Origin: Ophelia neglecta
Taxonomy: Eukaryota
Direction: 5' to 3'
Assembly (NCBI GenBank): GCA_965285935.1
Contig: OZ260665.1
Span: 25,296,001 to 25,360,000 of the forward strand
Length of the DNA stretch: 64,000 bases
Positions 33,001 to 51,000 of the stretch are shown in pieces (within the stretch, counting starts at the first letter, position 1; each line of letters begins with the position of its first letter). Made by a program: the position numbers.

Positions 33001-36000
33001 CTAGACATTAAAACATGTAATATTTTCCGGGAACCCGTTTCCCATTGGTTGGCGTAATAATGATATTGATAGCAATCATTGATTTGCAAATGTGTTTAGG
33101 AACGTTTGTTATTTAAACGCTTTTACCAAATATGTCAACTCCAGGAAAAGCACACTACGCCCTGACCTAGCTTTCAACATTAATTTTTGTATGGTACTTG
33201 CATGTTTACTCCAAGTCCCTGTCGCGAGTAGGCACGATTTAGATACAAAATGAGTACACTGCAAATGCGATTAGCCAAATTAAAGCAGTCTGACTGTGAA
33301 TGTTGTGGTTGTTTAGACAACGAAAAACACTTCTTATACTAGTCTGTACTCATTTCGATCACATCCGTAACAAATATACATAGATCCTTGTACTACACAC
33401 ATGGATTAACTGATCAGGTGATCGAACTATTGTGTTTGAACAACTCATACACGTGTTCTAAATAAACCGTTACTTTTTCCTCAAAAAAAAGGTAGGCACG
33501 ACAAGAGGGAGACTAAGCAAGTGTAAACAAACAATGTTTCAAAATAAAATCCACCAAATTGCTGAAATAAGTTTCAAAGCATAATTGCATTCGGATACTT
33601 GTCGAATTTTGTTCTATAGAAATACCCGCATATTTGTGGTATTTTAGTTTAGTTGTTTTACAGCAATATGCTGGTATGTGTAACGTAAATACGAAATGGT
33701 TTGTAGTTAGGGAATCCTTTCTCAATGTACGACATGTTATAGGTTTGTGTCTATGATATTTAACGGATTGATTACACATATACGGGTGTATACTACTATA
33801 CGCTCATACTGATCCTCAATAACCGCCAGACAATAATTAAATTTGTGATTTAGCCTAACTAGGCGGGAAGAAACGAACAGTGACCATTTGAGACTTTTTA
33901 ATTCTAAAGCATAGCCTAAATTGTCTAAATTGAGTTTATAATCTGGTTTTAATATAAAATGATTATATTAGCATGTTTGGTTTACAACTCTAGTATAGTT
34001 GGTCCCATAACTCATTTGTCTTTGTCATTGTCATTCTCATCAAAGGTCATTCAATACGCCTGTATCGATGCGGCCATTTTTACGCTTGTCTTGACATCAT
34101 GACGCATATATCGTTCTGGAGAAAGTCCACGTAATAAATGATCCCTTGAAGTGCTCTGATATGTCCAATCTTGTACCGACGCCCACTCTCCACCAACGCG
34201 GTCTCTCGAGCAATTTGGCTAAGACATGTGCCATTTGAGAAGCAGGCCCACTTGTTCTTCAATGTGTCGTATTTGCTACCAATCCTAGGCTTCTAATGTA
34301 GATATCCCACTGTAAAGGAGATTCGGTTATTACCTTTGTTCTTTGAACTAATAGACCCAAGGACAGGTGGTAGCAAACTCATTCTCAACAATATACTCAG
34401 CGAGTTTTTAGTACAGACTTTTTATTTACGCGTAGCATCACGGCTTTAAGTTACAACATGACTCATTTACCCAGACGGCAATATGGGCGGCGGCGGCTCG
34501 ACTCGGTAAAATGATTCTTCTTTGCATCCTGGTCATTTTATTTTTATTTAGATATTCAATTCACCTTTAATCAACATCTAGAAATTGACCACAAGGTTCC
34601 CAGTTGTCTCTAACCAGCTTGAACAGCCTGTGGAAAATGCTGTTCTCTTACACCGCTGAATATAGATGCCAACTTGTGCCTCAATATGTTTAACAATGCA
34701 TGTGTTTTGTAAAGCTTCGCGGAAAGTAAGAATCTGCTTTGTCAGAGACACGTGTTTGTACCAGATCATAGGTTGTCATACCTTTGTTTCACATCCAAAT
34801 TGAACTTCGTTTTCTTTGCATGGATGCTATGTACAATATTCTCATGTACATGTATGTAATTTAATTATATTCTATTAATATATTCCGCTATGGCAATAAA
34901 ACCATTATTCGTTTGTTGCTATGGCAAAATAGTAAAGTTTTCTTATTTCATGACTGCAACATTACACTGTATATACTTTAATGCTATACTCTATTCCGTA
35001 AAAATAGCCAGTCGGACAAATTATGAAACTGATACTGCACTGCCATTCTATAACTTTAATAAATGTTTAACCTTTCTCTCTTTGCAGGTATAACTTAGCG
35101 TGGCAAAGAGAACATATCATTATTGTGATCAGAAATAGGCATTTTACCAGGTGAAAAGGACAATGGAATGGATATTTCTATAAGCGGTTCTGTTGAAACC
35201 TAATAAATTATATTTGCTCAAGGATATCCCACAAAGACATTGGTTTGCTTCAATTCCTTCTTTTCAATTGTGCATCACAAACTTTGGGCCGGATTTGAGA
35301 TTGACCGGTAGGGACGGCCGAGTATGAAGAAGGGCGAACACGTGATTGACTATGACAATGACGACGACCTTGACCCCAATCGAGGTCAATGCTGTTTGCG
35401 AGCAGCCCATTTCTCAGCCTCGTTTTCGATTATGGCCATTTTGTCGGCCGTGATTCTTATCCTTTCCTTCTACGACAAATACTTCTTCAATCTACGGACA
35501 CCCGCCGCCGCTATATTCGGTTTGACGTCATTCCTCGCCGTGATCACTGGCATCGTGTCTATTTTCATTGAGTGTCGTCTGCAGGAAAAGTCACACTTCT
35601 GTCGTCGAATTTACTTCATCGTCTGTTGTCTTTGTGTTGACGACATAGACAAACAGATTTTGTATGGGCGGACAAAGGTATAGAACAACAGCTATACTAC
35701 CATATCTCTCAGATAAAATGTACTTATAAATACGCGTTTAGAGAATAACGGTGACCTCGTGAAAGCTTAGTATCTGCGTGCCCACATGGATCCTGAGATG
35801 GCCACATATATCCACTAACTTTTCAACTTAATCTGGCTTCTCTTTTGGAACAAAAGTTCTCAGTGTGCACATAATACAGGCGGTGAATTTTCTGTGCTAA
35901 AACATTGGCTATAAACAAATACATATAGATTATGGCATTGCATATGTGCACTGAGCTGTGGTTTTCGAAATGCAAAGCAAGAAAGCGATCAGGACAAATA

Positions 36001-48000: not shown

Positions 48001-51000
48001 CTTACTAGTTCCTATCATACACCAATCGTGAGAACATAACGTCGTATTCAATGTTTCTGACTATTTGACTAAGTGCACATAAATGTCCTGCCTACTTATA
48101 GGACTGTACACTTTGTGCAAGGGTAAACGTCCAAGCGTGCTTCATATTATTTACTTGTATATATATTTAATGCACATCCGACATCTTACCTGAAAGGAAG
48201 ACCACCTCATTACATCATTGTCATATCTGTGTCCATTTCATTGAGCCCAGTATGACATCGCCATATCAAAATGTTTATCAGGCAACTGGAATCTCCAAGA
48301 CAATCGAGACAAATAGGTTGTCGTCATTCCAATCCTTTCGTGACGCCATATGGGTCATAGCGATACAGTTAAATTGGCATTTTCCCCTCCATGTTGTTTT
48401 AAAGGAAACTACTGCCATTTTGATTGCATATTAAAGGTGACCATTTTGATCATTTTTATCACAATCCCATATTAGCAGAGACAACTATGCCAGTGTCTTC
48501 TCATGTCATTCTTGAAGGGGCATAGGCCTATAGGTCTTGTCACCCCCATTCGTCCCATTCGCAGAGACTGTGTTATTGTCCTTCCTCTCTTATGATGTAA
48601 AGTTTAACTTATTTTGGTTTAACTTGGTCTACCTAGCTAGCAACATGTTATGGTAGTCATTCAATCAAAATTCATAATGTATTGATTGTGACAGCAATCT
48701 AATTTACATAATCATTTTGGATCTACAGGTCCCAAATAGAGCATGTAGCTGACAGAAGACGAACGGATATAAATATGGAACATCGATACGTAAAGGGATT
48801 TGTCTGTGTCTTTTTTAAAGCGGTCTACATGCATGCGGAGTAAGACATTATTTAACTGAAATCAAATATTGGAGCGCCGTGTACAGATTGTGGTCTTCTA
48901 GGAGGTATGATTAAAGGCGAGCGCGCGGTTGCCTATGACGACGATGGTGAATTTGACCCCAATCAGGGTCAATGCTGTTTGCGGGCTTCTCATTTCACAG
49001 CCTCCTTTTTATTGTTGGCAATTTTGTCGGCTGTTATTTTCATCCTTTCCTTCCACGACGTATACTTGCACAATCTACGGACACCCGCCTCTGCCATTTT
49101 GGGTCTGACGTCATTCCTCGCCGTTGTCACCGGGCTTGTTTCAATCTTCATCGAATGTCGTCTGCAGGAAAAATCACATTTCTGTCGTCGCCTTTACTTG
49201 GTCATTTGTTGTCTCTGTATTGATGACATTGACAGGAAGGTTATGTGTGGACCCACTTCAACCCAAACCAAAACATCTCTCAATTTTCGGCAGATAAAAT
49301 ATAGATTTGTAGACATCCCGAAGGACTTTAATGGAATATATACAAACGGCACATTGCACGACATTGGCCAGGAGATAATTAGCACTACTACTGTAGTTTG
49401 ACACGTGCAAGGAGCTGATTACATAGGTGGATGAATAACTTCTAGCATACAGGCAAGCTGGACGGGGCCTGCTCTATAGTCCTACAGCCCATTGGTCCTA
49501 CGACCCATTGGTCCTACGGCCCATTAGTCCTACGGCCCATTGGTCCTATTATCTCGGGCCCGGGTCCTACGACCCATTGGGCCTACAGCCCATTGGTCCT
49601 ACGACCCATTGGTCCTACTACTATACCTTTTAATTGGTATATATAGGGTAAAGTCGGGAAATTTCGCGCACTGCTGCGTAAAGTAACCCGACATTGCTCA
49701 ATAACTACGTGACACATGACTGCTGAGGACAGTCAGCGCTCTTTTGATTCAGATCTACGTACTAACTGTTGTTTTACAAATGTTAACATTCTGTTGAACA
49801 ATGTAGATGAAATTAGTCTCTGAGTGTGAGATAACAACCTGCAGATTAATGATGAAAGAACATAACTGCGTGCTGGTGATTAGAACACCATATAATAAAC
49901 CAAATCAGCGTAAAAAAAATTGTTGACCGTGCTGAGGAACTTAAACAGAAATGGTCGTTCTGAAATTGAGGACAAATATCCGACCTAAACGTCAATACAC
50001 TACAAAACAGGCGGAAGCTTCATACCAAACAAGCATTACAATACCACATTTGGCTCTTAATGTAGATGAAATTAGTCTCTGAGTGTGAGATAACAACCTG
50101 CAGATTAATGATGAAAGAACATAACTGCGTGCTGGTGATCAGTACACCATATAATAAACCAAATCAGCGTAAAAAAAATTGTTGACCGTGCTGAGGAACT
50201 TAAACAGAAATGGTCGTTCTAAAATTGAGGACAAATATCCGACCTAAACGTCAATACAAAATTAAATAATTTTCCTCTACATAAAAAGGTCCGAATTAAA
50301 CTAGATCTCTGGAACTGAGCTTTGCTCAGTTTCTAGGCTTCACCCTAATCGATTGGCTTATTTTCAACGTTAAGCTGATACAGGGCTGTTTTCAAATTTC
50401 AAAAGTAGGTTAAAGCCAAAATGTAGGTGACCAACGCTGATACAGAGCTTAAAATTTCAAAAGTAGGTCAAAGGTCAACATCTAGGTCACCAAAAGAATC
50501 CCCTCATTTGGTTTCCTATAGGTGTCTAATACATATATAGTTGATATCTTGCACCCTTAAGCTGATACAGGCCTTCAAATGTCAAAACAGAATGAAAAAA
50601 TATTTGAAAAAATTGTTTAGAACCAACTAAAAGCCTGTCTCAGTGAACATAATTTTCTTTCACCGGACCAGTCTGCCTATAGAAAATACCATTCTACAGA
50701 AACATCATTACATAGGGTGATAGCTGACCTATTGGATGCTGTTAACGAAGGCCTGGTTGGTAGAATTTGATTTTTTGACCTGCAAAAATGTTTCGATACC
50801 ATAGACCATAGCATCCTACTCACTAAACTGGAACATTATGCCGGGTGGTATTCGCGGTACCTGCAAACTATGGTTTGAGAGTTATTTAACTGATAGAAAA
50901 CAAGCTGTTTTAGTAAATGGGACACTTTCCTCTTTTTTGCAAATTGAATACGGAGTGCCACAGGGCTCTGTGCTTGGCCCGTTACTCTTTCTGTTATTTA

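What the first reader, a model, noticed from the sequence alone, without database searches (positions are those of the whole stretch)
35324..49401. Co-oriented cluster of an unrecognised small Cys-rich two-TM protein family (two intact genes, one pseudogene)
Seen: two single-coding-exon ORFs 13.6 kb apart align without gaps at about 69% identity, with many synonymous and conservative changes, while their flanks have diverged. A decayed third copy lies between them. Layout: acidic N-terminus, GQCC, TM1, a loop of about 10 aa, TM2, invariant IECRLQEKSHFCRR, then a hydrophobic CCLC segment. There is no signal peptide. Inference: both termini are cytosolic, the Cys clusters are palmitoylated, and the family evolves by birth and death. 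The overall plan recalls two-TM channel or receptor auxiliary subunits such as PIRT/TMEM100, but I see no sequence-level match to any family I know. Non-conservative differences in the membrane region cluster in the short loop (YDKYFF vs HDVYLH).
Basis: partly seen in the sequence, partly recalled or inferred. Interest (0 to 1): 0.72.

Follow-up and report, generated by a model that had tools for sequence, protein, structure and literature searches.

The report
Paralogous small two-pass Cys-rich membrane genes
Two neighbouring genes and one decayed copy encode a small cysteine-rich protein that crosses the membrane twice; selection has kept both genes intact, but they match no described family and their function is only inferred.

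Summary
ORF A (35324-35683, 119 aa) and ORF B (48907-49401, 164 aa) lie on the + strand 13,583 nt apart. They align at 82 of 119 residues with no gaps (E 6e-66). DNA similarity is confined to the ORF and about 40 nt after it. dN/dS is 0.20 (bootstrap 0.11-0.35), against 1.1 and 2.1 in the other two frames. A decayed, frame-broken third copy lies at 40481-40684. Hydropathy shows two membrane helices, and the charge distribution favours both ends in the cytosol. All seven conserved cysteines would then be cytosolic, next to the membrane.

Pfam gave 0 families at E<=10. PDB sequence searches, a low-confidence AlphaFold model (pLDDT 53) with Foldseek, and a prokaryote genome scan gave no relative. 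Language-model look-alikes (sarcospan/CD20, FAM70; 0.77-0.80) are at chance level.

New here: a possible 49-51-nt intron just before a shared stop codon would make both proteins 113 aa.

Best reading: real, selected, tandemly duplicated genes for a probably S-acylated hairpin membrane adaptor. Palmitoylation, partners and expression are untested. Interest is modest.

The parts
35324..35683 (+). Gene A: ATG-to-stop ORF of 119 aa. It has an acidic N-terminus, GQCC, TM1, a short loop, TM2, ECRLQEKSHFCRR, and a hydrophobic CCLC stub followed by DDID.
35408..35470 (+). Gene A, TM1 (residues about 29-49)
   Evidence: Kyte-Doolittle 19-residue windows above 1.6; no charged residue in the segment. AlphaFold helix 18-54, low confidence.
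35510..35569 (+). Gene A, TM2 (residues about 63-82)
   Evidence: AlphaFold helix 60-87
35570..35638 (+). Gene A, Cys-rich segment after TM2 (residues 83-105; C84, C93, C101, C102, C104; 4 K/R). Residues 83-95 are identical in B.
48907..49401 (+). Gene B: ATG-to-stop ORF of 164 aa. Only the first ~117 codons (48907-49257) are similar to A. The tail has background composition.
48991..49053 (+). Gene B, TM1 (residues about 29-49)
49093..49152 (+). Gene B, TM2 (residues about 63-82)
40481..40684 (+). Decayed third copy (pseudogene fragment), corresponding to A codons about 43-107. It has no ATG, carries indels at 40502-03 and 40557, and has lost the ECRLQEKSHFCRR motif. The region matching the first 42 codons is at random-level identity.
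35662..35712 (+). Candidate 51-nt intron of gene A (GTATGG ... pyrimidine run ... CAG), phase 2. This is a hypothesis, not shown.
49245..49293 (+). Candidate 49-nt intron of gene B (GTGTGG ... CAG) at the homologous position. Hypothesis.
35710..35719 (+). Conserved 10-mer CAGATAAAAT after gene A (candidate acceptor plus in-frame TAA). Its twin lies at 49291-49300.
   Evidence: Longest common substring of the two 3' flanks. An exact run of 10 or more within +-5 nt of collinearity was reached by 11 of 5000 shuffles.
49291..49300 (+). The same conserved 10-mer in gene B

Best explanation
A and B are two functional, tandemly duplicated, co-oriented genes of a eukaryotic (non-vertebrate-like) genome, with one dead copy between them. 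Each encodes a protein of about 113-119 aa that inserts as a helical hairpin. The acidic N-terminus and the C-terminal Cys-rich segment sit in the cytosol, and a loop of about 13 residues sits on the other side of the membrane. These points are shown or directly supported: the paralogy, the purifying selection, the two TM helices and the charge asymmetry.

The rest is inferred. The seven conserved cysteines (C23/C24 just before TM1; C84, C93, C101/C102/C104 after TM2) all lie at the cytosolic membrane face, and at least some are S-acylated. This would pin the short hydrophobic helix after TM2 to the bilayer. The protein has no room for an enzyme or transporter domain. It most likely works as a small membrane adaptor or auxiliary subunit that packs its Ser/Thr/Gly-rich helices against a larger membrane protein. 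The half of the exposed loop that differs between the paralogues (YDKYFF vs HDVYLH) is the likeliest source of partner specificity.
For: - Paralogy: 82/119 identical, 0 gaps, E 6e-66.
- Selection: differences by codon position 20/10/41. Nei-Gojobori gives dS 0.757, dN 0.150, ratio 0.198. The bootstrap 95% interval is 0.108-0.345 and Fisher p is 3e-9. The same stretch read in the other two frames gives 1.13 and 2.09.
- Equal rates: 14 A-specific vs 13 B-specific changes with the third copy as outgroup.
- Age and locality: DNA similarity is limited to the ORF, and no repeat is shared around the two copies other than the ORF itself.
- Pseudogene contrast: the third copy differs from A at 31/17/30 sites by codon position over the same columns where A and B differ at 12/2/23.
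- Topology: two segments with 19-residue hydropathy above 1.6 and no charges. K+R is 1-2 in the loop, 4 in the 14 residues after TM2, and R26 lies before TM1.
- Fold: AlphaFold gives three helices (18-54, 60-87, 91-113), but at pLDDT 53.
- All 7 cysteines are invariant.
- Start codon: a stop lies 4 codons upstream of A's ATG (sequence), and the homology begins at the ATG. Both ATGs have a purine at -3.
Against: - There is no evidence of transcription or of the protein.
- Palmitoylation is inferred only from the position of the cysteines (general knowledge). No predictor or experiment was used.
- The model is of low confidence (pLDDT 53; 57 of 119 residues below 50).
- No relative outside the window was found, so selection is measured on one pair only.
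- The C-terminus is uncertain: 119 vs 164 aa unspliced, 113 aa each if the candidate intron is real.
- The cluster has an odd number of cysteines plus a conserved His (H91), which could equally suggest metal binding.
- Language-model neighbours point weakly to four-pass families. That would fit a longer gene.
Confidence: 0.6

Rival explanations
1. The ORFs are only 5' coding exons of larger genes. They could be the first half (TM1-TM2) of a four-pass CD20/sarcospan/TMEM255-like protein. Alternatively they could be alternative first exons that splice to shared constant exons downstream of B.
For: - Atlas feature neighbours among named clusters: a Sarcospan cluster (PF04103 on 78% of members) at 0.80 and a FAM70 cluster at 0.79. 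Eight of the ten best named hits share a family or clan. FAM70 and CD20 clusters also appear at 0.77 for A.
- GT dinucleotides lie near the end of both ORFs.
- The hydrophobic stretch after TM2 (YFIVCCLCV) looks like the start of a third helix.
Against: - Scores of 0.8 are reached by a third of shuffled proteins, according to the tool's own note.
- Pfam gave 0 families at E<=10, so also not PF04103 or PF14967.
- A translated all-against-all comparison of 30000-48800 with 48801-64000 (pieces of 15 aa or more, E<=0.01) found no further conserved + strand piece downstream of the two ORFs. It found only the ORFs themselves, the third copy, an inverted repeat element at 37.0-37.5 kb vs 52.7-53.2 and 54.8-55.3 kb, and one weak opposite-strand pair (35147-35263 vs 50621-50767, E 0.004).
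- The hydrophobic stub is followed by a conserved DDID whose differences are synonymous or conservative, so it is coding and is not a TM helix.
- The strongest-looking donors (A AAG|GTATAG, B AAG|GTTATG) are not at homologous positions.
Confidence: 0.12
2. The Cys/His cluster after TM2 (C84, H91, C93, C101, C102, C104) binds a metal or forms disulfides rather than carrying acyl chains. In the disulfide case the topology would be N-out/C-out.
For: Seven invariant Cys and an invariant His. No signal for acylation was measured.
Against: The positive-inside count favours cytosolic termini. The cysteines lie inside or next to hydrophobic stretches (CCLC within YFIVCCLCV), which is typical of acylation sites and not of zinc knuckles (general knowledge). 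No Pfam zinc-binding domain matched.
Confidence: 0.15
3. The ORFs belong to a transposon or virus-derived element, not to host genes.
For: The neighbourhood is rich in retroelement debris: an RT fragment at 50805-51275 (RVT_1, E 1.9e-5) and a LINE at 1556-4627. A repeat-bounded element starts 78 nt after B's stop.
Against: There are only three copies in 64 kb, all co-oriented within 14 kb. The two copies share no terminal repeats or flanks. dN/dS of 0.20 between copies whose flanks have fully diverged is not what independently decaying insertions give. There is no Pfam match to any transposon domain.
Confidence: 0.03
4. The genes were under selection in the past, but one or both are now silent.
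For: There are no expression data. B lacks a stop at the position where A has one, and the nearest canonical AATAAA after B is at 49894, inside a repeat element.
Against: Both ORFs are intact with all invariant motifs. Their rates are symmetric (14 vs 13). The truly dead copy nearby shows what decay looks like.
Confidence: 0.1

Closest known systems
Microspan (uSPN), the two-TM splice form of sarcospan
   Same: A small protein (14 kDa) with TM1 and TM2 only. It is described as a hairpin with N- and C-termini predicted to be intracellular and a very short C-terminal piece (six residues) from a separate exon (passages of PMC5461684). The Atlas's best named neighbour of B is a sarcospan cluster (0.80).
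   Different: Microspan is a splice product of a four-TM gene, whereas here the hairpin is the whole ORF. No sequence-level match was found: Pfam PF04103 was not hit at E<=10, and the Atlas score is at the level of shuffled controls. A study of MS4A/TMEM176 concluded that invertebrates lack clear MS4A-like genes (passages of PMC2826416). Its supplementary figure and table on the invertebrate candidates could not be seen.
PIRT and TMEM100 (small two-TM regulators of TRP channels)
   Same: Both are small two-TM proteins that act as modulators of larger membrane proteins. TMEM100 is called 'a two-transmembrane protein' that regulates the TRPA1-TRPV1 association in the abstract of PMC10077888. PIRT is called a 'small modulatory membrane protein' in the abstract of PMC6773951 (both seen as search-listing abstracts). 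The basic residues after TM2 (CRR, 4 K/R) recall their basic C-terminal segments; that detail is recalled and was not checked.
   Different: There is no Pfam match of any kind. That Pfam-A holds PIRT and TMEM100 models is recalled, not checked. The Cys clusters and the acidic N-terminus are not features I know from those families.
CD225/dispanin proteins (IFITM, PRRT2)
   Same: Small proteins with two hydrophobic segments and palmitoylated juxtamembrane cysteines (recalled from general knowledge; no call).
   Different: There is no Pfam CD225 match. In that family the conserved loop between the hydrophobic segments is cytosolic (recalled), whereas here the charge count puts the loop outside.
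CD20/MS4A and TMEM255 (FAM70) four-pass proteins
   Same: The order cytosolic N-terminus, TM1, short outer loop, TM2, short basic cytosolic turn, hydrophobic stretch resembles their first half. They are the Atlas's named neighbours.
   Different: Only two TM helices are present. There is no profile match, no PDB sequence match to CD20, and no conserved downstream exons.

Membership tests
CD20/MS4A/sarcospan (Pfam PF04103) | Sequence match to the family profile | tested here: not met
   hmmscan against Pfam-A, max E 10: 0 families for A and for B. HMMER's filters drop most matches above E of about 0.1, so a very weak match could be hidden.
CD20/MS4A/sarcospan (Pfam PF04103) | Four transmembrane helices | tested here: not met
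   Only two regions exceed 1.6 in 19-residue hydropathy windows. The third hydrophobic stretch is 9 residues and is followed by a conserved DDID. No conserved downstream exon was found.
CD20/MS4A/sarcospan (Pfam PF04103) | Both termini cytosolic, short first outer loop | tested here: inconclusive
   The K+R count (loop 1-2 vs 4 after TM2) and the loop of about 13 residues fit, but this is a rule of thumb and not a measurement.
CD20/MS4A/sarcospan (Pfam PF04103) | Similarity by protein-language-model features | tested here: inconclusive
   Sarcospan cluster at 0.80, 140 of 256 features shared. By the tool's own note, a third of shuffled proteins reach 0.8.
TMEM255/FAM70 (Pfam PF14967) | Sequence match to the family profile | tested here: not met
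   0 families at E<=10. Atlas cluster at 0.77-0.79, with the family on only 23% of its members.
PIRT / TMEM100 | Sequence match to the family profiles | tested here: not met
   0 Pfam families at E<=10. That Pfam-A contains these two families is recalled, not checked.
PIRT / TMEM100 | Binding to and modulation of TRP channels | not testable with these tools
   Needs co-expression and electrophysiology.
CD225/dispanin (IFITM) | Sequence match to the CD225 profile | tested here: not met
   0 Pfam families at E<=10.
Tetraspanin (Pfam PF00335) | Four TM helices and a large second outer loop with a CCG motif | tested here: not met
   Two TM helices only. No Pfam match. No further conserved exons.
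S-acylated (palmitoylated) membrane proteins, as a functional class | Thioester-linked acyl chains on cytosolic juxtamembrane cysteines | not testable with these tools
   Only the position and invariance of the 7 cysteines are shown.

The most novel reading that the evidence does not exclude
These are stand-alone genes for a 'half-tetraspan': a gene-encoded counterpart of the two-TM microspan form of sarcospan/CD20-type proteins. Such hairpins would pair to build a four-helix membrane unit, the divergent outer loop would set partner choice, and the family would be restricted to one invertebrate lineage and not yet described.
Probability: 0.07. Interest if true: 0.55.

Novelty: new member of a known kind. 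Interest (0 to 1): 0.3.

Why it matters
Small membrane proteins are often missed or left unnamed in genome annotation, and several are key regulators of channels and receptors. This pair is a clean case. It has strong evidence of selection and no family name, and the dead copy beside it serves as an internal control. If the family is widespread in its lineage, it would be a tractable candidate for a new auxiliary subunit. If it is confined to one genome, it is one more taxonomically restricted gene family, which is a common finding.

Tried and rejected
- Pfam-A on both proteins at E<=10: 0 families.
- PDB sequence search. With A, the best hit was E 0.44 (cannabinoid receptor TM stretches, taken as composition matches). 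With the A+B profile, there was one hit at E 1.4.
These are leads only.
- AlphaFold2 with the two-row alignment: pLDDT 53, pTM 0.33. Foldseek against the PDB: 210 matches at E<=10, 0 at E<=0.001, best E 2.0. These are meaningless at this model quality.
- Scan of 185,579 prokaryote genomes with two peptide patterns: 20 pattern matches, 0 confirmed by tblastn.
- Search for further conserved exons downstream of A and B: none.
- Search for a fourth copy in the window: none below E=1 among 3398 pieces.
- Test for a shared mobile-element frame around A and B: none.
- Rfam at gathering threshold: 0 matches. tRNA scan: 0 genes.
- Conserved promoter motif: the longest common substring of the 150-nt 5' flanks is 8 and is not collinear.
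- An 8-of-8 residue match of B 54-61 at 58697-58720 (- strand, E 0.47) lies in a frame broken by stops. I took it as chance.
- Complex prediction was not used, because the report does not claim a particular binding pair.
No search of eukaryotic genomes or proteomes was therefore possible.
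Full report
**What is there**

On the + strand, ORF A (35324-35683, 119 aa) and ORF B (48907-49401, 164 aa) are the only long similar ORFs in the region. BLASTP aligns them at 82 of 119 residues (69%), with 102 positives, no gap and E 6e-66. 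Their starts are 13,583 nt apart (family D6).

A sensitive blastn of about 6.4 kb around each copy gives a single match, 35322-35722 against 48905-49303, at 75% over 403 columns. Similarity begins two bases before the ATG and ends about 40 bases after A's stop. The longest string shared by the 150-nt 5' flanks is 8 bases and is not collinear.

An in-frame stop lies four codons upstream of A's ATG, and both ATGs have a purine at -3. The shared ATG is therefore the start.

**Is it more than chance, and is it coding?**

Over the first 111 codons the differences fall 20/10/41 by codon position. Nei-Gojobori gives dS 0.757 and dN 0.150, a ratio of 0.198. The bootstrap 95% interval is 0.108-0.345 and Fisher p is 3e-9. 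The same DNA read in the other two frames gives 1.13 and 2.09. The named frame is thus the one under purifying selection. The high dS also explains why neutral flanks are no longer alignable.

With the third copy as outgroup, A and B carry 14 and 13 private changes. Neither has been drifting freely.

**The third copy**

- tblastn finds 40544-40684 (40% over 47 aa, E 8e-6).
- blastn finds 40488-40677 (65%, E 3e-14).
- An HMM of A+B run on all 3398 six-frame pieces of the window finds A, B and 40481-40684 (E 4.7e-6). Nothing else scores below E=1.

In a three-way alignment this copy is 60% identical to both A and B over A codons 43-107. Its differences are spread 31/17/30 by codon position, against 12/2/23 for A-B over the same columns. 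It carries indels at 40502-03 and 40557. The part matching the first 42 codons is at about 41% identity, which is the random level. The ECRLQEKSHFCRR motif is gone.

**The protein**

The alignment has 82 invariant columns, including all seven cysteines of the shared part (C23, C24, C84, C93, C101, C102, C104) and residues 82-95.

Hydropathy shows two uncharged segments, about 29-49 and 63-82. A third hydrophobic stretch of only nine residues (YFIVCCLCV / YLVICCLCI) is followed by DDID. The DDID codons differ only by synonymous or conservative changes, so this stretch is coding and is not a third membrane helix.

K+R counts are 1-2 in the 13-residue loop, 4 in the 14 residues after TM2, and R26 lies before TM1. 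By the positive-inside rule (established knowledge) both ends are cytosolic. All seven cysteines then lie at the cytosolic face. That they are S-acylated is inferred from position only.

AlphaFold2 with the two-row alignment gives helices 18-54, 60-87 and 91-113, but at mean pLDDT 53 with 57 of 119 residues below 50. I use it only as weak support for a helical hairpin.

Within the membrane region, the non-conservative differences are S35L, Y50H, K52V and F55H. Three of these four are in the first half of the loop. With two sequences this cannot be tested for positive selection.

A-B similarity stops at a shared TGTRTGG (GT at 35662 in A and 49245 in B). The next 39 aligned columns are 15/39 identical. 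Similarity then returns as a 10/10 identical CAGATAAAAT preceded by a pyrimidine run (35710-35719; 49291-49300).

A run of 10 or more anywhere in the two 150-nt flanks is reached by 49 of 2000 shuffles. Within +-5 nt of collinearity it is reached by 11 of 5000.

Read as GT...AG, this would be an intron of 51 nt in A and 49 nt in B, in phase 2. The codon across the junction is completed by the A of the 10-mer, and the next codon is its TAA. Both proteins would then be 113 aa, ending DDIDKQIL and DDIDRKVI.

Points for this model:
- It explains the conserved 10-mer.
- It explains the unequal unspliced ends (119 vs 164 aa).
- It explains the background composition of B's extra tail (GC 0.37 and GC3 0.40, against 0.47 and 0.51 in the shared part).
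- An open run of 45-51 codons from a random codon occurs with probability 0.07-0.10 in this window, so B's long tail needs no coding explanation.

Points against it:
- The exon sides of the donors are poor (TTT|, TAT|).
- Codons 114-117 still show two silent third-position differences.
- Introns this short are normal only in some lineages (general knowledge), and the species is unknown.

I put the mini-intron at roughly 40%. The other GT sites (A AAG|GTATAG at 35677/78, B AAG|GTTATG at 49239/40) are not at homologous positions.

All searches and the fold used the genomic exon as it stands. The joined product was not built, searched or folded. The second exon would add one base and the stop.

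**Is it part of something bigger or mobile?**

I compared all translated pieces of 15 aa or more from 30000-48800 with those from 48801-64000 at E<=0.01. Apart from the ORFs and the third copy, this found only a repeat element in opposite orientation (about 37.0-37.5 kb vs 52.7-53.2 and 54.8-55.3 kb) and one weak opposite-strand pair (35147-35263 vs 50621-50767, E 0.004). No conserved downstream coding exon was found.

A and B share no terminal repeats. Transposon debris is nearby: an RT fragment at 50805-51275 and a LINE at 1556-4627. However, three co-oriented copies within 14 kb, fully diverged flanks and dN/dS of 0.2 fit host genes duplicated in tandem. They do not fit insertions.

**Context**

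The window is eukaryotic. It holds a collagen exon (PF01391, E 2e-21), a weak fasciclin match and LINE reverse transcriptase and endonuclease. It has no tRNA and no Rfam family.

CpG observed/expected is 0.77, far from what I recall for vertebrate genomes. I do not take the window for human. The species cannot be named with the tools at hand.

**Comparison with what is known**

- Pfam-A gives 0 families at E<=10 for both proteins.
- PDB sequence searches give nothing better than E 0.44.
- Foldseek against the PDB gives 0 of 210 listed matches at E<=0.001.
- A pattern scan of prokaryote genomes gives 20 pattern matches, none confirmed.
- The ESM Atlas gives best scores of 0.79-0.80. Among named clusters these are a sarcospan cluster (PF04103 on 78% of members, 0.80) and a FAM70 cluster (0.79). 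Eight of the ten best named hits share one family or clan. The tool states that a third of shuffled proteins reach 0.8, so this is a lead and not a result.

By architecture the nearest described thing is microspan. It is the 14-kDa two-TM splice form of sarcospan, with both ends predicted to be intracellular and a six-residue C-terminal piece from a separate exon (passages of PMC5461684). A survey of MS4A/TMEM176 found only doubtful invertebrate look-alikes and concluded that invertebrates lack MS4A-like genes (passages of PMC2826416). Its supplementary figure and table could not be seen.

It does not hold at the level of sequence.

**What stayed unchecked**

No eukaryotic genome or proteome could be searched. 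Whether the family exists elsewhere, how old it is and whether someone has already named it all remain open. My literature searches were aimed at the look-alike families, not at this sequence, so they do not show that the family is absent from print.

**Verdict**

The reading as a small N-in/C-in Cys-rich hairpin protein family, with two live genes and one dead one, is well supported. Palmitoylation and a role as an auxiliary subunit are reasonable inferences without direct evidence.

Orphan families of small membrane proteins in tandem arrays are common in invertebrate genomes. The interest is therefore modest unless the family proves widespread or the link to four-pass CD20/sarcospan-type proteins proves real.

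Noticed in passing
window 49479-52042: An element of about 2.5 kb starts 78 nt after B's stop. It is bounded by inverted arrays of a 16-nt minisatellite: 49479-49618 (8.4 copies) and 51805-52042 (14.9 copies, 98% matches), with arms up to 76 nt at 95% complementarity. Inside it are a 259-nt tandem duplication (49800-50258) and a reverse-transcriptase fragment (50805-51275, RVT_1 E 1.9e-5).
   Followed up: partly
window 52230-55757: A tandem duplication with a unit of about 2.07 kb at 99-100% identity (52230-52529/54309-54608, 52558-52857/54630-54929, 53387-53686/55458-55757). It is either recent or an assembly artefact. An older related copy lies in opposite orientation at about 37.0-37.5 kb.
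   Followed up: no
window 1556-4627 (-) and 21392-21811 (-): A non-LTR retrotransposon with a reverse transcriptase (RVT_1, E 7.6e-24) and an endonuclease-like part (E 8.2e-6). A separate endonuclease-like fragment lies at 21.4-21.8 kb (E 0.0021).
   Followed up: partly
window 16201-16755 (+); 9354-11648 (+): A long collagen triple-helix exon (PF01391, E 2.3e-21). Upstream is a probable secreted fasciclin-like gene (weak Fasciclin match, E 0.0076; signal-peptide-like start in the ORF at 9354).
   Followed up: partly
window, whole; ORFs A and B: CpG observed/expected is 0.77 for the window but 1.35 and 1.02 in the two ORFs, and their GC is 0.46-0.47 against about 0.40 around them. In animals with mosaic gene-body methylation, a high CpG ratio goes with unmethylated, tissue-restricted genes (general knowledge). 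The ORFs are too short for this to weigh much.
   Followed up: no
window 45339-45436: A 49-nt unit repeated about twice (84-86% identity) between the pseudogene and gene B.
   Followed up: no
window 29688-29949: A run of 262 N. It was left untouched.
   Followed up: no
window 57219-57668 (-): An ORF on the opposite strand contains an internal MGICGGKGG, which looks like an N-terminal myristoylation/palmitoylation start. It has no Pfam match.
   Followed up: no
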